Part shown: piece by piece, positions 5,199 to 15,143 of the stretch
Layout of the letters: each line of letters opens with the position of its first letter
How positions within the stretch are numbered: position 1 is the first letter of the stretch
NCBI GenBank assembly: GCA_017613225.1
Contig: JAGAEH010000204.1
Span: 1 to 30,448 of the forward strand
Direction: 5' to 3'
Origin: Lachnospiraceae bacterium
Lineage (GTDB): Bacteria > Bacillota > Clostridia > Lachnospirales > Lachnospiraceae
Length of the DNA stretch: 30,448 nucleotides
The notes under the pieces: model-generated
What the model was told of the DNA's origin: nothing
Databases searched by the model: none
What the model saw: only the letters and a program-made list of their open reading frames with translations
Program-made: the position numbers and the translations under genes

Positions 5199-8100
5199 GT
5201 GTTTCCAAAGTTCAGTGTTAAAAGACCCTATACCGTGATCGTCGGCGTGATCATGGTGCTGATCCTGGGGTACGTGTCGGTGACCGACATGACCGCGGAC
5301 CTGCTGCCCAGCATCGAATTGCCGTATTCCATCGTCACGACCGTATTCGCAGGCGCCAGCCCGGAGGAGGTGGAGACCTCCGTCACCAGGCCGGTGGAGA
5401 GCGCCATGGCAACGGTCAGCAACATCAAGAGCATCAATTCTGTTTCTTCCGAGAATCTTTCCATGGTCATCCTGGAGTTTGAGGAGTCCGCCAACATGGA
5501 CTCCGTCAACCTGGAGATGCGCGTAAAACTGGATCAGACCGCAGCCGGCTGGGAGGATAAGATCGGCAGCCCCATGATCATCAACATCAATCCCGACATG
5601 CTTCCGGTGATGGTGGCCGCCGTCAGCCGGGAGGGCTATTCCGGCGCGCGGCTGAACGACTACGTGAAGGACAACATCCTGGCGGAGCTGGAGAGCGTGG
5701 AGGGCGTGGCCAGCGTCTCCGCCTCCGGCGGCGTCACAGAGACCATCCAGGTGACCATCTCCAAGGAGAAACTGTCGGAGGTCAACGGCAATGTCCGGAA
5801 GGTGGTCAGCGACAAGTTCGCGGACGCCAGAAAAGAGCTGGAGGATGGCCGCAGGGAGATCGAAGACGGCCTGAAAAAGGTGGACGACGGCGAAAAGGAA
5901 GTGGACGAGGCCCTGACGAAGCTTTCGGAGGGAAATGAAGAGCTGGCAAAGCAGATGGCCAAGGCCCGCACCGAGGTGGATTCCAAAAAGTCGGAGCTGG
6001 AAGGCGCCAAACTCCAGCTGACGGTGAAGCTTTCGGAACTGCAGGCTAAAAAGGCGGAACTACAGCAGACCAGGACCATGCTGGTACAGCTGAGATCCGC
6101 CAGGGACACGCTGACGAAGCAGATCAAGGACACCAAAAAGGCTCTGAAGGACCTGGAGGAGATGATCAAGGCCTACAACAAGGCCAAAAAGAAGATGGAG
6201 GGCTTTGAAAAGTCCATCGCCGAGATCGAGGCCAGCACGAAGCTGACGGATAAGGAAAAAGAGAAGGCCATCAAGGCCATTAAGAAAGATAAGGACTACG
6301 TCAAAACGGAGCAGAGCCTGAAGACCCTGGAAAAAGCCTTCAAGGCACAGGGGCTGACGCCGGAACTGCTGGAGACCCAGCACGCGCAGCTGGAGACCGC
6401 CCTGGAGACGCTGAACGGGGCGCTGAAGGAACTGGACAAGACCCTGAAGCCCTATGTGAAGGACGCGGGGAATCTGAACAAGACGCTGAAACAGCTGGAT
6501 GACGGCTTAAAACAGATCGAAAAGGGCGAAAAGACCATCAACAAGACCCTGAAGCAGCTGGAGGAAGGCAGCGCGGGGATCCGGGAGGCGGAGGCGGCCA
6601 TAGGCGAGAACGAGTCCTCGGCCTATTACGAGATCTACTCGGCCATGACCCAGGCCATGGTGGGCAGGCAGACGCTGGAGGCCACCAAAGCCCAGCTGGA
6701 GGCCGCGCTGGAACAGCTGGACGCCGCAGCGGAGCAGATCGACACCCAGGAAGAGGACGCCATGGACAAGGCCGACCTGCTGGGCGTGATCACCCGGGAC
6801 ATGGTGGGCAAGATCCTTACGGCCCAGAATTTTGCCATGCCCGCGGGCTACATCGGGGAGGAAGACAACCAGATCCTGGTGCGCGTGGGGGACAAGTTCA
6901 TTACGAAAGAGGACCTGGCCGATCTGGTGATCGTGGATCTGGACATGGAAGGCCTGGAGCCGGTCAAGCTGTCCGACGTGGCGGACGTGGTCCTGGTCAA
7001 CGACGCGGATTCCGTCTACGCGGCCATCGACGGGGAACCGGGCATCCTTCTGACCATGCAGAAGCAGACCGGCTATTCCACCGGCGACGTGGCGGACAGC
7101 ATCAAGGCGCGCTTCGAGGCCCTGGAGGGCGAGGTGGACGGCCTTTCCTTCAGCGTGCTGATGGACCAGGGCATCTACATCGACTTTGTGGTGAGTTCCG
7201 TCTTTAAGAACCTGCTGATAGGCGCGCTGCTGGCCATTCTGATCCTGATCCTGTTCTTGCGGGACATCCGTCCCACTTTCGTCATCGCCCTGGCCATCCC
7301 CATCAGCCTGACGGCGGCGGTGGCGCTGATGTACTTCAGCCATATCAGCCTGAACGTGATCTCCCTGTCCGGACTGGCCCTGGGGGTGGGCATGCTGGTG
7401 GACAACTCCATCGTGGTGACGGAGAACATCTACCGCATGCGCAGCGAAGGCGTTCCGCCGGCCAGAGCGGCGGTGGAAGGCGCCAGGGAAGTGTCCGGCG
7501 CCATTCTGGCCTCTACCCTGACCACCTGCTGCGTGTTCCTGCCCATCGTCTTTACCGAGGGCCTGACCAAGCAGCTGTTCACCGACCTGGGCCTGACCAT
7601 CACCTATTCGCTGATGGCCAGCCTGCTGGTGGCCCTGACACTGGTGCCCGTCATGGGCAAGGGCTTCCTGACCAGGATCAGCGAAAAGAAAAACAGAAGC
7701 TACAGTCTCGCGGCCAAAGGCTATTCCGCCGCGGTGAAGTGGGCTCTGGGCCACCGGGCCATCGTGCTGGTGCTGGCCCTGGCCATGCTGGCAGGCTCCG
7801 GATGGCTGGCTTACAGAAACGGCACCTCCCTGTTCCCCGACATGGAGACCACCCAGGTGACCGTCACCCTGACGCCGCCGGAGGGCAGCACCATTCCCGA
7901 GGCGGCAGCCCTTTCGGACCAGGTGATCGAGCGCATCATGACCATCGACGACGTGGAGACCGTGGGCGGCATGATCGGAAACGGCAGCGCCCTGATGGGG
8001 CTGAATCTGGGCGGGGGCGGCAGTTCCCGTTCCGTGACCATCTACATCATCCTGAAAGAGGATCAGAAACTGAGCAATAAAGAGGTGAAGGAGGAGATCC

Positions 8101-11682: not shown

Positions 11683-12930
11683 ATGAACAGAGAATTCCAC
11701 ATGGGCAACCGGGAAAAGCTGATCGCTACCCTGCCGCAGCACTCCCTGACCGTCATATTCGCGGGCCATGCGCCGATGAAGACCGGCGATGAACCCTATC
11801 CCTTCTATGCCAACCGCAATTTCGTCTATCTCACAGGCATCACCCAGGAAGACAGCATTCTGCTGATCGACAAGACTCCGGAGCAGACCAGGCAGATCCT
11901 CTTTGCCCTGCCGCCGGACGAGCACGCGGAGCGCTGGACGGGCCGCCGCGTGAAAGCCTACGAGGCGGAAAGGATCGCGGGCATCACCGAGTTCATGTAT
12001 CTGGATCAGTTCGACAGCTACGTTCACCGCTGCATGAAGAGCGATCACTACAACGACGTCTGTCTGGACCTGTACCAGAACAGCGTGAACGACGCGGACA
12101 GCGAGGCCATCAAATACGCGGCGAAGGTGCGGCAGCAGTACGCCTGGGTAAAGATCCACAACATCTCCCTGCAGCTGAAGCGCCAGCGCGTGATCAAGCA
12201 GCCCTGCGAGATCGAGGCCATGCGGAAGGCGGCGGTGATCACCCGGGCCGGCATCGTGGCCATGATGAAGGCGTCGAAGCCCGGCATGTGGGAATATGAA
12301 TACAAGGCTGAATTCGACTACGCCCTGACCAAAGCCGGCTGTTTAAGCCCCGGCTTCCCCAGCATCATCTCCGCCGGAGACAACAACTTCTGCATCCACT
12401 ATTACGCCTACACCGGCCAGGCCAAGGACGGCGACATGATCTTAAACGATGTGGCAGCCCAGTACGACGGCCTGACCAACGACGTATCCCGGGGCTGGCC
12501 CTGTAACGGCAAGTTCACAGAAAAACAGCGGGCGCTGTACCAGTGCGCCTATAATACATCCCAGCACATGTTCAGCATCATCAGGCCCGGCATGAAAATG
12601 CGGGACGTGGACCGTCTGGCCAGGGAATACAACTTTGAGCAGCTGAAGGCCATCGGTCTGCTGGACGACTACAAGGATATCGGGAAATACATGTGGCACG
12701 GCGGCGCCCATCACGTGGGCTACGACGTCCACGACATCGTGGACGTGGATATCATCGAACCCGGCATGGTGTTCTGCGTGGACATCGGCATCTACGTGCT
12801 GGAGTGGGGCATCGGCTTCCGCCTGGAGGACAACTGCCTGGTCACCGAGGACGGCTGCGAGAACCTGACCGCGAACATCCCCCGCACCATCGAGGACATC
12901 GAAGCCGTGATGGCCGGGGAGATGGAGTAG
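11683..12930 (+). CDS. pepP: Xaa-Pro aminopeptidase (aminopeptidase P, M24B)
   Basis: N-terminal YPFYANRNFVYLTGI; M24 metal ligands in HY...DV..YDG..ND.SR, H..HHVGYDVHD and GFRLEDN.LVT. Confidence 0.9.
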   Translation: MNREFHMGNREKLIATLPQHSLTVIFAGHAPMKTGDEPYPFYANRNFVYLTGITQEDSILLIDKTPEQTRQILFALPPDEHAERWTGRRVKAYEAERIAGITEFMYLDQFDSYVHRCMKSDHYNDVCLDLYQNSVNDADSEAIKYAAKVRQQYAWVKIHNISLQLKRQRVIKQPCEIEAMRKAAVITRAGIVAMMKASKPGMWEYEYKAEFDYALTKAGCLSPGFPSIISAGDNNFCIHYYAYTGQAKDGDMILNDVAAQYDGLTNDVSRGWPCNGKFTEKQRALYQCAYNTSQHMFSIIRPGMKMRDVDRLAREYNFEQLKAIGLLDDYKDIGKYMWHGGAHHVGYDVHDIVDVDIIEPGMVFCVDIGIYVLEWGIGFRLEDNCLVTEDGCENLTANIPRTIEDIEAVMAGEME

Positions 12931-12932
12931 GA

Positions 12933-13019
12933 GCCTGCCATCCTGAGCGCAGCACGCGGAGCGTCTGAAAGGAGCGCAGTCGAAGGATCCCCCGGGACAA
13001 TGTCCAAGGGGGATCTTTT
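12933..13019 (+). repeat. Second REP-like element fused to a terminator after pepP
   Basis: GCCTGCCATCCTGAGCGCAGC...GCAGTCGAAGGATCCCCC shares both ends with the 10376-10477 unit; GATCCCCC/GGGGGATC-TTTT forms a terminator stem. Confidence 0.75.
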
Positions 13020-13043
13020 CCTTCAAAAAAAGTGAAAAAACAT

Positions 13044-13072
13044 TTGACAATTCGATTTCATCATAGTAATAT
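13044..13072 (+). promoter_or_regulatory. sigma-A promoter of tRNA-Thr
   Basis: TTGACA (13044-13049), 17 nt, TAATAT (13067-13072). Confidence 0.8.
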
Positions 13073-13085
13073 AACGCTTGCACGT

Positions 13086-13158
<73 letters not shown>

Positions 13159-13170
13159 TTTTTATTGTGA

Positions 13171-13196
13171 AAAGGCACCCTGACGGGTGCTTTTTT
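13171..13196 (+). terminator. Intrinsic terminator after tRNA-Thr
   Basis: GCACCC-TGAC-GGGTGC-TTTTTT. Confidence 0.8.
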
Positions 13197-13212
13197 AATA
13201 GCTGAAGGGCTC

Positions 13213-13515
13213 TGTCGGCTTTTTTAGGGGGTTTTCTTTCTGATAGCCGACACTTCCCCTCGTTTTCTTTATAGACCAGGAAAACCAGCGCATGGATGTC
13301 GGCTAAAATCTCGGTTTTGAGCAGATCAAGCCGACATTTCTTTAGGAATCTTTTTATTCATAAAGTGCTTGTAGGGAGTTTTAAGGATATCTGTCGGCCA
13401 CCTGTGGAAAATCTCGTGAAAATAGCCGACACCAGCCACTCGGCACCCTGTCATTACAGTTCCGGATCGTACGTTGGTCGGCTATTTAGGACGTATTTGC
13501 GTTTGGCAGCCAACA
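13213..13515. repeat. Array 1: four units of TGTCGGCT-N24-AGCCGACA
   Basis: Units start at 13213, 13297, 13392 and 13476 (periods 84, 95, 84). The interior is exactly 24 nt in all four but differs in sequence. Units 3 and 4 carry 1-2 substitutions. Confidence 0.9.
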
Positions 13516-13536
13516 GAGAAAAACAAGAGCCCCTGC

Positions 13537-13746
13537 ATCCTACTCCAATACGGTGTAGGGAGACCTTCACTGGACCTCCGAATATCCCACTTATTGGGAC
13601 TAGCCACCAACACGTTTTGTCCGCTAACCCGTATCATGATTGCTCGCACAAAGCAAGAGAATACCGGTACTGAACCTCCGCCCATCAGGCCGAAATCCAA
13701 TACCGGTATCTCGGCTCCTAGATCCTACTTCAATACGAGGCAGGGA
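13537..13746. repeat. Interarray repeats: 25 bp direct repeat pair and paired TACCGGTA palindromes
   Basis: ATCCTACTCCAATACGGTGTAGGGA (13537-13561) vs ATCCTACTTCAATACGAGGCAGGGA (13722-13746), 21/25 identical; AATACCGGTA at 13660 and 13699. Confidence 0.7.
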
Positions 13747-13837
13747 AGGAGCTTTTCTTAGTATACTCCATGCGGTTTAAATCGGCAAGCAGGACTTTGC
13801 CGCATTTGAGGCTCAGTTTTCGGTCTGCACGGGCACG

Positions 13838-14133
13838 AAAGCAGATACTTTGGACAGTAACCGGTTAAAGTATCTGCTTTTGTGTTGAACAGGAATCGTT
13901 CCCGGACCCGGATCCGGGTGATGAAGCAGATACTTCCCCATGTTTTGACCATTTGTATCTGCTGAAAAATGGACTTTGGCATGTGGGAACGTCTGTCATG
14001 ATAAAAATCCAGCAGATACTTTGCCGCAAAAACAGGGCGGGTATCTGCTTTCTATGATCCAGCAAGGTAATCAGACTGCGAAAATGAAGGGAAACAGCAG
14101 ATACTTTACCGAAAAAACCGAAAAGTATCTGCT
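13838..14133. repeat. Array 2: four units of AGCAGATAC-N21(20)-GTATCTGCT
   Basis: Units start at 13840, 13925, 14011 and 14096 (periods 85, 86, 85). AGCAGATACTT is invariant on the left; unit 1 is a perfect 14 bp inverted repeat (AAAGCAGATACTTT/AAAGTATCTGCTTT). Confidence 0.92.
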
Positions 14134-14134
14134 T

Positions 14135-15025
14135 TTACGGCTGATCCTCCTCGGCATAATCCGCCAGCAGTTCTTCGGTCTCGGCATTCAGTGCCAGCGC
14201 TTCGCGGGCCGCGCGCTCTTCCTCCAGCGCGCGGTTTAAGGACGCGCCTAAAAGCAGGATCGTCATCAGGGTGCGCAGCCACATGATCACTAAAAAGATG
14301 GAAGCCAGCGGGCCGTAGTAGGAGGCGGACTTCCAGAATCGCGGAATGAAGAAGGCAAAGCCGCGGGAGAAGCCTTCGCCGATCAGCATGGTAAAGATGG
14401 CGCCGGGCAGCTGGCTCTTCAGGCTCTTGGTGCGGCCGGACAGGAAGGTGTAGGTCAGCACCACCAGGAAGACGGTGACGCCCAGGGTGACCAGCCGGCT
14501 GACGCGCATGATCAGGCCGATCAACACGCCGGAATCCGGGATCAGTTCGATCAGGGCATCCCGGATGGTATCACCCAGCAGGTGGAAGACCAGCAGGGCC
14601 GGCACCAGGATCAGGAGCAGCAGCGTATAGAGGATCACCGTGATGAGGCTGCGCAGCGGGTTTTTGATGTCGTAGACCCGGGCCATGGCCTTCTGCAGAG
14701 CGGCTACGCCCCGGGAAGCGGACCACAGGGACAGGATGGCGGAAACGGAGAGCATCAAGCCCCGGGACTGGCCGCTGATGTTGCGGATCAGGTTCAGGAT
14801 CATGTCCCGGATCTGGTCCAGGTCCGGCAGGATCTTCAGCAGAAAGTGGGAAAGATCGTCCGTATTGAAAAAGGGCAGCAGGTTCACGATGGAGGTGATC
14901 AGCATCAGCAGCGGCACGAAGGACATGACGATGTACAGCGTGGTATGGCCGGCGTACACCGTCATCTCTTTTTGGGAGAAGATCTTCCAGGTGTTCGTGA
15001 TGATGCGTTTCAGCTTTTCTTTCAT
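14135..15025 (-). CDS. YihY/virulence factor BrkB family membrane protein
   Basis: MKEKLK..., AG..TLYIVMSFVPLLML, LSLWSAS.GV.AL.KAM.RVY, KSQLPGAIF, YYGPLASIFLVIMWL, ILLLGASLN; multiple TM helices. Confidence 0.9.
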   Translation of the reverse strand: MKEKLKRIITNTWKIFSQKEMTVYAGHTTLYIVMSFVPLLMLITSIVNLLPFFNTDDLSHFLLKILPDLDQIRDMILNLIRNISGQSRGLMLSVSAILSLWSASRGVAALQKAMARVYDIKNPLRSLITVILYTLLLLILVPALLVFHLLGDTIRDALIELIPDSGVLIGLIMRVSRLVTLGVTVFLVVLTYTFLSGRTKSLKSQLPGAIFTMLIGEGFSRGFAFFIPRFWKSASYYGPLASIFLVIMWLRTLMTILLLGASLNRALEEERAAREALALNAETEELLADYAEEDQP

Positions 15026-15031
15026 GTTTGA

Positions 15032-15060
15032 ATCATAGCGCAAAAAGCCCCCGATTACAA
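15032..15060 (-). promoter_or_regulatory. sigma-A promoter of yihY, probably giving a leaderless mRNA
   Basis: Minus strand TTGTAA (15060-15055), 17 nt, TATGAT (15037-15032), then 6 nt to the ATG at 15025; no SD. Confidence 0.6.
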
Positions 15061-15071
15061 ATTGATTATTG

Positions 15072-15100
15072 TTGACCAAAAATGCAAAGAGAAGTATTAT
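15072..15100 (+). promoter_or_regulatory. sigma-A promoter of pta
   Basis: TTGACC (15072-15077), 17 nt, TATTAT (15095-15100). Confidence 0.65.
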
Positions 15101-15143
15101 CAAGGTAGTATTCCAAATTCAAATCCGAAAGGAGTCTACCGTC

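What the first reader, a model, noticed from the sequence alone, without database searches (positions are those of the whole stretch)
13213..14133. Candidate novel system: ~930 bp non-coding module of two different, helically phased inverted-repeat arrays after tRNA-Thr
Seen: between the tRNA-Thr terminator and the yihY stop there is no credible gene. Two four-unit arrays with unrelated core sequences share the same geometry: ~39-40 bp units, fixed-length variable interiors often with A/T tracts, and a period of 84-86 bp with one of 95 bp. A third set of repeats lies between them. At 10.5 bp/turn, 84 bp is 8 turns and 95 bp is 9 turns. Inference: shared geometry with different sequence argues for selection on spacing, i.e. 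a DNA scaffold wrapped or bridged by two sequence-specific proteins (centromere-, origin- or recombination-enhancer-like). The alternative is a processed multi-hairpin RNA with two repeats and two variable segments per unit. No cognate protein gene is in this window.
Basis: partly seen in the sequence, partly recalled or inferred. Interest (0 to 1): 0.8.

Follow-up and report, generated by a model that had tools for sequence, protein, structure and literature searches.

The report
Phased palindrome arrays, nuclease-partnered repeat family
The two "arrays" are real, but they are two separate gene-less copies of a repeat scattered through this gut bacterium's genome. The repeat is a row of four evenly spaced DNA palindromes. 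One copy sits directly in front of an uncharacterised nuclease-like gene that carries its own such array in many other gut bacteria, so this looks like an undescribed repeat-plus-enzyme partnership.

Summary
Observation confirmed. Window 13214-13514 (arms GTCGGCT/AGCCGAC; periods 84/95/84) and 13841-14132 (arms AGCAGATACTTT; 85/86/85) are four-unit palindrome arrays.

They are not one 930-bp module. They are two adjacent copies of one dispersed ~292-302-bp element. The MAG (1.87 Mb, 74% complete) holds at least 18 intergenic copies in four arm "dialects".

In seven B copies, 54 of 56 arms are exact. Spacers are 46/47/46 bp in every copy, yet non-arm sequence is only 34-38% identical (chance 27%).

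One B copy lies 95 bp upstream of a 283-aa gene with no Pfam family. The protein has an N-terminal helical hairpin and a C-terminal PD-(D/E)XK (TnsA / I-Bth0305I-like) nuclease fold, and it is predicted to form a homodimer. Of 33 homologue loci, 16 carry their own palindrome array by a strict rule (about 25 including looser calls); background is 1.4-1.8% of 1-kb windows. Arms are lineage-specific.

Best reading: double-stranded DNA docking sites for a cognate nuclease-like dimer, analogous to REPIN/RAYT and NTS/Ssn. Binding and function are untested.

This scan has found the same class before on other DNA. I found no published description.

The parts
13086..13158 (+). tRNA-Thr(GGT), left neighbour (context only)
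   Evidence: ARAGORN; Rfam tRNA 75.4 bits
13213..13515 (+). Array A: gene-less, somewhat decayed copy of the dispersed four-unit element, dialect A. Arms are T-GTCGGCT-a and the reverse complement. Units are 13214-13251, 13298-13335, 13393-13430 and 13477-13514.
   Evidence: The same four-unit geometry occurs at C60, C127, C130 and C187. It aligns with B arrays end to end. The accessory motifs are degenerate here and the last arm has one mismatch.
13516..13839 (.). Inter-array DNA with its own diverged local duplication: 33-nt pair at 13529 and 13714, ATACCGGTAT palindromes at 13661 and 13700. Not a member of the array family; nature unknown.
   Evidence: D2, D12, D15, I4. No other copy in the genome. 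No Rfam family. No remnant of the nuclease gene (hmmsearch of six frames).
13840..14133 (+). Array B: gene-less copy, dialect B. Arms are A-GCAGATAC-TTT and the reverse complement. Units are 13841-13877, 13926-13962, 14012-14048 and 14097-14132.
   Evidence: Arm offsets are identical to those of six other B copies (0/85/171/256 and 29/114/200/284, total 292 bp).
13892..13902 (.). Accessory palindrome GGAATCGTTCC (family consensus GGAAC-N-GTTCC), lying after unit 1 of array B
   Evidence: Conserved at this position in A and B copies. Six of the 11 sites in the genome lie in known arrays, and a seventh lies in the decayed C-type array at C57.
14082..14094 (+). Accessory motif AAATGAAGGGAAA immediately 5' of unit 4 of array B (family consensus AAATGAGGG)
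   Evidence: Conserved in A, B and C dialects of this genome, in L150, and before every unit in L151
14135..15103 (-). YihY/BrkB-family membrane protein gene, right neighbour (context only)
   Evidence: PF03631, E 1.4e-44

Best explanation
The stretch holds two adjacent, independent, gene-less copies (dialects A and B) of a dispersed non-coding element of about 292-302 bp. Each element is a row of four dyad-symmetric units. A unit has an 8-12-bp arm, about 6 free bases, an A/T-rich centre, about 6 free bases and the inverted arm. Units are spaced about 8 helical turns apart, or 9 in one gap of most A copies. Two extra motifs, GGAAC-N-GTTCC and AAATGAGGG, sit in fixed spacers. I propose that each unit is a double-stranded DNA docking site for a dimer of a cognate nuclease-like protein. 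For dialect B that protein would be the 283-aa gene at contig C111, which lies directly downstream of its own B array. The protein has an N-terminal helical hairpin that is predicted to dimerise and a C-terminal PD-(D/E)XK domain. The four dimers would sit on roughly one face of the helix as a phased nucleoprotein array. The gene-linked array would be the vertically kept 'master' locus. The scattered gene-less arrays, including the two in this window, would be its non-autonomous partners, gained and lost between related species, much as REPINs relate to their RAYT or NTS repeats to Ssn. Shown here: the geometry, the dispersal, the length constraint, the gene-array linkage across genomes and the nuclease fold. 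Inferred only: binding, cleavage, how copies spread, and any benefit to the host. The partner for dialect A was not found in this 74%-complete MAG.
For: (1) Dispersal with rigid geometry. There are 8 B, 5 A, 3 C and 2 D arrays, all intergenic and beside unrelated housekeeping genes.
(2) Constraint on arms and length only. In seven B copies 54 of 56 arms are exact, spacers are 46/47/46 bp in all seven, and interiors are 14-15/15/15/14 bp. Ungapped identity is 0.34 for interiors and 0.38 for spacers, against 0.27-0.28 after shuffling. All pairs are equally distant, at 0.33-0.42.
(3) One-turn quantum. The second gap in A copies is 94-96 bp in four and 85 bp in one. Across the family, periods cluster at 51-54, 61-65, 73-77, 83-86 and 95 bp. 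Scanning candidate repeats from 8 to 13 bp, the Rayleigh resultant peaks at exactly 10.5 bp (R = 0.71, n = 31).
(4) Gene linkage. The B array at C111:2546-2837 ends 95 bp upstream of a 283-aa ORF. The only paralogue in the genome (C234) is also flanked by arrays. Of 33 homologue loci, 16 pass a strict rule (a 7-mer present at least 3 times in each orientation in a flank), and about 25 do with TRF or by eye. Background is 1.4% of 1-kb windows in this genome and 1.8% in unrelated loci.
(5) Shared arms between gene-linked and gene-less arrays within other genomes: G347 has GACTATAT at 3 loci and G419 has GCAATGA at 3 loci.
(6) Lineage-specific arms. B arms occur 30 times here and 0-1 times in 40 relatives. 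A arms occur 16 times here and at most once in each of 400 genomes of the order. The syntenic array in a sister organism (L150; protein 63% identical) keeps the geometry and both accessory motifs, while GCAGATAC has become GCGGATAC in its left arms and in one right arm.
(7) Fold. The AlphaFold model has pLDDT 89.9. Residues 166-283 match the I-Bth0305I catalytic domain (Z 8.6, rmsd 2.8, 90 residues), TnsA (Z 8.1, 115 residues) and Bax1 (Z 8.0). The top Foldseek rows are all nuclease folds, but weak (E >= 0.011). E180, D211 and E226 are invariant in 32 homologues.
(8) A dyad-symmetric homodimer is predicted. Score 0.66 against a best control of 0.00. In the tool's calibration the mark was reached by 20 of 30 proteins solved as pairs of one chain and 1 of 23 solved as single chains. 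Runs agree in at least 97% of contacts; partner pLDDT is 86. This supports binding but does not show it.
(9) Arrays lie upstream of the gene in some loci and downstream in others, which argues against a 5'-leader RNA.
Against: No binding, cleavage or expression data exist. No cognate gene was found for dialects A and C, so the A array in the window has no identified partner. Collapsing periods to nine distinct classes makes the helical-phase test non-significant (R = 0.35, p about 0.3), and the classes 45, 48, 77 and 81 bp do not fit. Loci are related, so the n = 31 test overstates the case. The correlation between arm similarity and protein identity is weak (r = 0.27 on crude 7-mers). In L150, three of four units pair G with T across the arms on the gene strand, which a hairpin in RNA or single-stranded DNA would tolerate. 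T-tracts outnumber A-tracts in unit centres when the arrays are co-oriented (my reading), so a strand-specific role is not excluded. All B copies are equally and almost maximally diverged. Yet the hisS-linked copy is absent from a relative whose flanking genes are 83-88% identical in DNA. How copies arise is therefore unexplained.
Confidence: 0.6

Rival explanations
1. Structured RNA: the arrays are transcribed as four-hairpin RNAs (small RNAs, processed units, or stabiliser/terminator hairpins). The arms would be stems and the interiors free loops.
For: The inverted arms give strongly negative folding z-scores (-6.05 for B, -4.15 for A). Three arm dialects all keep complementarity. G-T pairing on one strand in L150 and the T-tract bias in unit centres could be strand-specific. 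Unit 4 of array B abuts the yihY stop codon.
Against: Loop and spacer lengths are fixed to the base, and the only length variant is +10-11 bp; RNA hairpins do not require this. Arrays have no consistent orientation to neighbouring genes and lie on either side of the partner gene. There is no Rfam family. Promoter- and terminator-like sites are at background level. The minimum-energy folds pair arms of different units promiscuously. The imperfect arms show no consistent wobble pattern.
Confidence: 0.1
2. Ordinary decaying MITE or REP/BIME clusters moved by an unrelated transposase, for example the RAYT in this genome. They would have no link to the nuclease-like gene and no function of their own.
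For: The copies are intergenic, dispersed and often between convergent genes. The element ends are inverted copies of the arm, like terminal inverted repeats. The MAG encodes a Y1/RAYT-like transposase. Arrays are present or absent between related organisms.
Against: The RAYT gene is flanked by a different palindrome (CACAAAAGGACCGTCCCTGTGTG). No target-site duplication is visible at the element ends. No transposase-bearing copy with these arms exists, and arms occur only inside arrays. Neutral decay would erode arms and introduce indels, yet 54 of 56 arms are exact and only one 1-bp length difference is seen among the non-arm parts of seven B copies, which are otherwise near saturation. Linkage to the nuclease-like family recurs across genomes.
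Confidence: 0.1
3. Host chromosome-architecture sites (centromere-, origin- or nucleoid-organising arrays) bound by host proteins unrelated to the neighbouring nuclease-like gene.
For: Phased dyad sites with A/T-rich centres and extra conserved motifs resemble sopC/parC-type centromeres and nucleoprotein scaffolds (from my own knowledge). Arms and spacing are under selection.
Against: Arms are species-specific, and several dialects coexist in one genome. The copies are not conserved at orthologous sites in close relatives. No par, rep or recombinase gene is adjacent. The genome's real parS sites are elsewhere.
Confidence: 0.08
4. CRISPR-like or integron-like recording array whose fixed-length variable segments are acquired from elsewhere.
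For: Conserved repeats alternate with variable segments of exact length. All copies are equally dissimilar in those segments.
Against: The repeat alternates in orientation. The 'spacers' carry position-specific conserved motifs. All copies have the same four units. No cas or integrase gene is nearby. The sequence is identical across four metagenome samples, so no turnover is seen. In other genomes (G419) interiors are uniform between units and between arrays, as expected for copied DNA rather than acquired DNA.
Confidence: 0.02

Closest known systems
REPIN/REP-BIME elements with their RAYT (REP-associated tyrosine transposase); PMC3116915, PMC3337134, PMC2817692
   Same: Short intergenic palindromes are dispersed in tens of copies, often in regularly spaced clusters. 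A low-copy cognate enzyme gene is flanked by the same repeat. The repeat dialect is lineage-specific and coexists with other dialects. The gene locus is inherited vertically while repeat copies come and go.
   Different: The enzyme here has a PD-(D/E)XK fold, not the HUH/Y1 fold. This genome's own RAYT has a different REP. The conserved unit is only the two arms with a free interior of exact length. The elements are fixed four-unit arrays with whole-turn spacing and two extra motifs. No GTAG-type guide tetranucleotide is evident.
Ssn GIY-YIG single-strand nucleases and their NTS/SRM repeats (PMC11893778)
   Same: A small nuclease gene is associated with, and surrounded by, a genome-wide repeat that it recognises. 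Specificity differs between homologues.
   Different: The nuclease superfamily differs (GIY-YIG versus PD-(D/E)XK). Ssn acts on single-stranded DNA. The whole-turn phasing here points to duplex DNA. The array architecture is absent from NTS.
PD-(D/E)XK homing endonuclease I-Bth0305I and Tn7 TnsA (fold relatives; PDB 3r3p, 1t0f)
   Same: They are the best structural matches to residues about 150-283 (Z 8.6 and 8.1). Both are sequence- or structure-directed DNA cutters of mobile elements.
   Different: There is no detectable sequence similarity. No intron, intein or Tn7 partner genes are present. The N-terminal helical-hairpin domain is unrelated. Z values around 8 are only moderate evidence.
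Plasmid partition centromeres made of phased repeats (F sopC/SopB, R1 parC/ParR; recalled from the literature)
   Same: Tandem, evenly spaced, dyad-symmetric protein sites lie next to the gene of the protein that binds them.
   Different: The arrays here are chromosomal, in many copies per genome, with no ParA-type partner. The associated protein has a nuclease fold. Unit interiors are not conserved.
PADLOC candidate defence proteins PDC-S68 and PDC-S69
   Same: The C-terminal nuclease domain of the 283-aa protein matches the C-terminus of PDC-S68 (E 8.7e-17; E 8.5e-27 for homologue P0037) and PDC-S69 (E 2.3e-5).
   Different: This is a domain-level match only: PDC-S68 is about 1,200 aa. These are uncharacterised candidates, so they give no function.

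Membership tests
REPIN/REP with RAYT | The cognate Y1 (HUH) transposase gene is flanked by the same repeat | tested here: not met
   The only PF01797 gene (C160) is flanked by a different palindrome, CACAAAAGGACCGTCCCTGTGTG, not by A or B arms
REPIN/REP with RAYT | Many dispersed intergenic palindromic copies, often clustered with regular spacing | tested here: met
   At least 18 intergenic arrays
MITE (non-autonomous DNA transposon) | Terminal inverted repeats with target-site duplications | tested here: inconclusive
   The ends are inverted arms, but no duplication is seen at the 13 aligned junctions. The copies are old, so duplications could have decayed.
MITE (non-autonomous DNA transposon) | An autonomous partner with the same ends encoding a transposase | tested here: not met
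   Arms occur only inside arrays. The neighbours are housekeeping genes. The MAG is only 74% complete.
CRISPR array | Direct repeats in one orientation separated by unique spacers, with a leader and cas genes | tested here: not met
   The arm alternates in orientation. The spacers carry conserved motifs at fixed positions. No cas genes are adjacent.
Integron attC cassette array | R''/R' core sites (GTTRRRY) and an intI integrase | tested here: not met
   The arms GTCGGCT and GTATCTGC do not fit GTTRRRY. The 85-bp period leaves no room for cassettes. No integrase is nearby.
Ssn/NTS system | A GIY-YIG Ssn gene framed by the repeat | tested here: not met
   The GIY-YIG matches are at C57:9710-9925 (89 aa), C219 (a 628-aa frame I read as UvrC) and a partial match at the edge of C129. 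No A, B or C arm pair flanks the small gene.
GxxExxY (PF13366) nuclease with framing repeats (earlier scan notes) | A PF13366 gene between inverted repeat arrays | tested here: not met
   No PF13366 match in this genome (MAG 74% complete)
Phased palindrome arrays with partner PD-(D/E)XK-like protein (undescribed class seen earlier in this scan) | Evenly spaced dyad units with conserved arms and free interiors of fixed length | tested here: met
Phased palindrome arrays with partner PD-(D/E)XK-like protein (undescribed class seen earlier in this scan) | An array of the same dialect lies directly beside a gene of the nuclease-like family in the same genome | tested here: met
   Met for dialect B: C111 array plus the 283-aa gene. 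Dialect D lies beside the C234 paralogue. Not found for dialects A and C.
Phased palindrome arrays with partner PD-(D/E)XK-like protein (undescribed class seen earlier in this scan) | Homologues in other genomes carry their own arrays, with arms that differ by lineage | tested here: met
   16 of 33 loci by the strict rule against a 1.4-1.8% background, with 17 different arm words. Gene-less arrays with the same arms occur in G347 and G419.
Phased palindrome arrays with partner PD-(D/E)XK-like protein (undescribed class seen earlier in this scan) | The protein binds or cuts its own arms | not testable with these tools
   Needs biochemistry. Only a homodimer prediction is available.
Partition centromere (sopC/parC type) | Adjacent ParA/ParB- or ParR-type genes; one or few copies per replicon | tested here: not met
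   No par genes beside any array. There are at least 18 copies. The true parS cluster is on C50.

The most novel reading that the evidence does not exclude
A widespread, unnamed family of PD-(D/E)XK nuclease-like proteins in gut Bacillota forms dimers that dock on private, helically phased palindrome arrays. The family fills about 100 clusters in the ESM Atlas, all labelled 'hypothetical protein'. Each protein would keep a population of gene-less arrays in its genome, with spacing (not sequence) as the selected trait. This would be a new enzyme class playing the RAYT/Ssn role, and possibly a new way of marking or structuring chromosomal DNA.
Probability: 0.35. Interest if true: 0.8.

Novelty: new variant of a known kind. 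Interest (0 to 1): 0.62.

Why it matters
If the pairing is real, it gives a first testable role to a large orphan protein family of gut and rumen Clostridia. It would add a third, structurally unrelated enzyme class (after HUH/RAYT and GIY-YIG/Ssn) to the repeat-plus-cognate-nuclease partnerships of bacterial genomes. The base-exact conservation of spacer length over near-random sequence is an unusually clean natural case of selection on DNA geometry. The lineage-specific arm 'dialects' could supply a set of orthogonal DNA-recognition modules. For annotation, it explains long gene-free gaps that assemblers and gene callers otherwise leave blank.

Tried and rejected
- Rfam at E <= 1 over 12900-14300 found only the tRNA.
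- The RAYT as partner was rejected because its flanks carry another palindrome.
- PF13366 is absent. The GIY-YIG genes are not framed by the arms. DUF6788 (PF20586), flagged on two distant homologues, does not match this genome.
- Pfam and NCBIfam give nothing for the 283-aa protein. A PDB sequence-profile search gave nothing meaningful.
- Small ORFs starting at the ATG of AAATGAGGG have no conserved length or stop (read), so this idea was rejected.
- An ECF-type promoter reading of GGAAC was rejected because the spacing does not fit.
- A six-frame HMM search of 13101-14200 found no remnant of the nuclease gene.
- The genome-contig scan for the B unit returned only single, chance-like matches in unrelated taxa.
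- Sequencing runs: no RNA holder is listed. Contigs from four samples of one study are identical to the window apart from a single base difference (13489 G>A) in one run, so they give no information on turnover.
- The syntenic sites of the window's arrays and of the hisS-linked array in relatives hold unrelated DNA. No empty-site junction could be defined.
- The protein-identity versus arm-similarity test was crude and weak.
- The helical-phase test is strong by locus but not by distinct period class.
Full report
**1. What is in the window**

The gap between tRNA-Thr(GGT) (13086-13158) and the stop of a YihY/BrkB-family gene (14135-15103 minus strand; PF03631) holds no credible gene.

- Array A has four 38-bp units, GTCGGCT-N24-AGCCGAC, starting at 13214, 13298, 13393 and 13477 (periods 84/95/84). 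The last right arm has one mismatch.
- Array B has four 36-37-bp units, GCAGATAC-N20/21-GTATCTGC, starting at 13841, 13926, 14012 and 14097 (periods 85/86/85).
- Neither pattern is expected by chance: 0.00 (B) and 0.15 (A) matches in shuffles of the window.

**2. The arrays are copies of a dispersed element, not a local module**

The window is contig C194 of a MAG (1.87 Mb, 269 contigs, 74% complete).

- The B unit occurs 30 times, always in arrays: C8, C10, C111, C138, C145, C194, C196 and C264.
- The A unit occurs in four-unit arrays on C60, C127, C130, C187 and C194, plus one solitary unit on C250.
- A sequence-agnostic detector found further dialects. Dialect C has arms CCGGCCGCA (C209, C26 and a decayed copy on C57). 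Dialect D has arms TGGTCAG (C184, C234).
- Arms occur essentially only inside arrays.

When oriented alike, A and B arrays align over their whole length and stop aligning exactly at the outer arms. Both carry a palindrome GGAAC-N-GTTCC after unit 1 and AAATGAGGG just before unit 4. A and B are therefore two dialects of one ~292-302-bp architecture.

In the window they lie in the same orientation, 325 bp apart. The DNA between them has its own diverged duplication but recurs nowhere else. It matches no Rfam family and holds no trace of the partner gene.

All arrays are intergenic, next to unrelated housekeeping genes such as hisS, clpC, tsaB, gap, pgk and lpdA (identities read from the translations, not confirmed by family search). 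They show no consistent orientation to those genes.

**3. Constraint is on arms and on length**

Half-site logos give A-GCAGATAC-TTT (B) and T-GTCGGCT-a (A). About six uninformative positions follow, then an A/T-rich dyad centre.

In seven B copies:
- arm offsets are 0/84-85/170-171/255-256 and 28-29/113-114/199-200/283-284;
- 54 of 56 arms are exact;
- the three spacers are 46, 47 and 46 bp in every copy;
- ungapped identity at the same ordinal position is only 0.34 (interiors) and 0.38 (spacers), against 0.27-0.28 after shuffling. Most of the excess comes from the two accessory motifs;
- every pair of copies is about equally distant, 0.33-0.42.

The only length polymorphism in A copies is one helical turn: the second gap is 94-96 bp in four copies and 85 bp in C127.

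**4. A partner gene**

Notes from earlier windows of this scan (entry e1-5202279) suggested that such arrays sit beside an uncharacterised nuclease-fold gene. I tested this here.

- The B array at C111:2546-2837 ends 95 bp upstream of a 283-aa ORF (C111:1600-2451, same direction). The ORF has no Pfam or NCBIfam family.
- Its homologues share invariant R176, S177, E180, Y196, E197, D211, E226 and G229, in an R-S-x-x-E ... P-D-F ... E-H pattern typical of PD-(D/E)XK nucleases.
- The AlphaFold model (pLDDT 89.9) has a long N-terminal helical hairpin with beta-hairpins and a C-terminal alpha/beta domain.
- The C-terminal domain's best matches are the catalytic domain of homing endonuclease I-Bth0305I (Z 8.6, rmsd 2.8, 90 residues), TnsA (Z 8.1, 115 residues) and Bax1 (Z 8.0). 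Foldseek rows are weak (E >= 0.011), but the top ones are all nuclease folds.
- The domain also matches the C-terminus of the PADLOC candidates PDC-S68 and PDC-S69.
- A symmetric homodimer is predicted: score 0.66 against a best control of 0.00. In the tool's calibration the mark was reached by 20 of 30 proteins solved as pairs of one chain and 1 of 23 solved as single chains. Runs agree in at least 97% of contacts; pLDDT is 86. This supports dimerisation but does not show it. A dyad dimer fits a dyad site.

**5. The linkage is general**

- The family occurs in 60 of 401 sampled genomes of the order, often in six or more copies. In the ESM Atlas it fills about 100 clusters, all named 'hypothetical protein'.
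- Of 33 homologue loci, 16 have a 7-mer present at least three times in each orientation in a flank. TRF or inspection adds about nine more. The same rule is met by 1.4% of 1-kb windows in this genome and 1.8% in unrelated loci.
- Arms differ from locus to locus, with 17 different arm words.
- In G347 and G419 the arms of the gene-linked array recur at two further, gene-less loci each. In G347 the interiors vary at fixed length, as here. In G419 interiors are uniform, as expected for young copies.
- The only paralogue in this MAG (C234, 26% identity) is also flanked by arrays, including D-type arms.
- A and B arms are essentially confined to this genome among 40 and 400 relatives searched.

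**6. Evolution**

- In a sister organism (L150), the neighbouring M20 peptidase is 96% identical in protein and 88.5% in DNA. The partner protein is only 63% identical.
- The syntenic array there keeps four units, periods of 84-85 bp, and both accessory motifs. GCAGATAC has become GCGGATAC in the left arms and in one right arm, and the spacers are scrambled.
- The gene-linked array is therefore inherited and constrained.
- Gene-less copies are not conserved in position. The window's site holds a TIR-Sel1 gene in a relative whose YihY is 78% identical. The hisS site holds unrelated DNA in a relative whose flanking genes are 83-88% identical in DNA.
- Four metagenome samples of one study carry the window's sequence unchanged, apart from a single base difference in one run.

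**7. DNA or RNA?**

For duplex DNA:
- base-exact spacer lengths;
- the one-turn length variant;
- family periods clustering at 51-54, 61-65, 73-77, 83-86 and 95 bp, with the Rayleigh resultant peaking at 10.5 bp when 8-13 bp is scanned (R = 0.71, n = 31);
- arrays lying on either side of the gene;
- no fixed orientation to neighbouring genes.

Caveats:
- loci are not independent, and the test on nine distinct period classes is not significant;
- periods of 45, 48, 77 and 81 bp do not fit;
- L150 shows G-T pairing on one strand;
- the centres are biased toward T-tracts.

The RNA fold z-scores are what any inverted repeat gives. I keep the RNA reading at about 10%.

**8. Verdict**

The two arrays are gene-less members of a dispersed family of phased palindrome arrays. 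They are most likely the docking sites of a cognate PD-(D/E)XK-like dimer, and they behave like REPINs with their RAYT (PMC3116915, PMC3337134) or NTS repeats with Ssn (PMC11893778). They differ in using another enzyme fold and a rigid, helically phased architecture.

My literature searches found no description. The same class was reported several times earlier in this scan on other DNA.

What is not known: whether the protein binds or cuts, how copies spread, what partners dialect A, and whether the host benefits.

Noticed in passing
G000 contig C50:11071-11392 (outside the window): Seven parS-like sites (TGTTTCACGTGAAACA, 0-2 mismatches) are spaced 42, 42, 42, 66, 72 and 42 bp. All spacings are multiples of 3. 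They lie inside a low-scoring ORF after an rsmG-like sequence and are the only parS matches in the MAG. This may be an in-frame parS cluster.
   Followed up: partly
G000 contig C160:2159-2893 (L130:1465-2199): A 244-aa Y1/RAYT-like transposase is flanked by its own palindrome (CACAAAAGGACCGTCCCTGTGTG; one copy upstream, three downstream). Copies of that REP also lie beside the B array on C196. The genome therefore hosts a classical REP/RAYT system alongside the array family.
   Followed up: partly
L131:698-2404 (metagenome contig syntenic to window 13160-14134): In a relative whose YihY is 78% identical, the tRNA-Thr/yihY gap holds a 568-aa TIR plus Sel1-repeat protein (ThsB-like TIR in PADLOC) instead of arrays. 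The gap is a variable, island-like site.
   Followed up: partly
G000 C8:1408-1780 and C209:931-1306: There are recent tandem amplifications of the 'AAATGAGG + unit' module: 85-bp repeats, nearly identical, with 4 extra units in C8 and 5 units in C209. Arrays can therefore grow by unit duplication.
   Followed up: partly
G000 C234:4480-6140: The paralogue of the partner gene (297 aa, 26% identity) has a 48-bp-period hairpin array upstream and D-type TGGTCAG/CTGACCA palindromes downstream. A further tandem repeat follows at 6300-6500.
   Followed up: no
window 13516-13839: The DNA between the two arrays holds a diverged local duplication (33-nt pair at 13529 and 13714; ACTGRACCTCCG at 13569 and 13669), two ATACCGGTAT palindromes and a 22-nt inverted repeat (13661-13709). 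It is unique in the genome and matches no Rfam family.
   Followed up: partly
L150:2119-2411: In the sister organism's syntenic array, the left arms carry G (GCGGATAC, degenerate in unit 1) while three of four right arms keep the A-type complement. This gives G-T oppositions on the gene strand only. It may be an intermediate in arm turnover or a hint of strand-specific function.
   Followed up: no
P0001 residues 166-283: The nuclease domain of the partner protein matches the C-terminal domain of the roughly 1,200-aa PADLOC candidate defence protein PDC-S68 (E 8.7e-17; E 8.5e-27 for homologue P0037).
   Followed up: no
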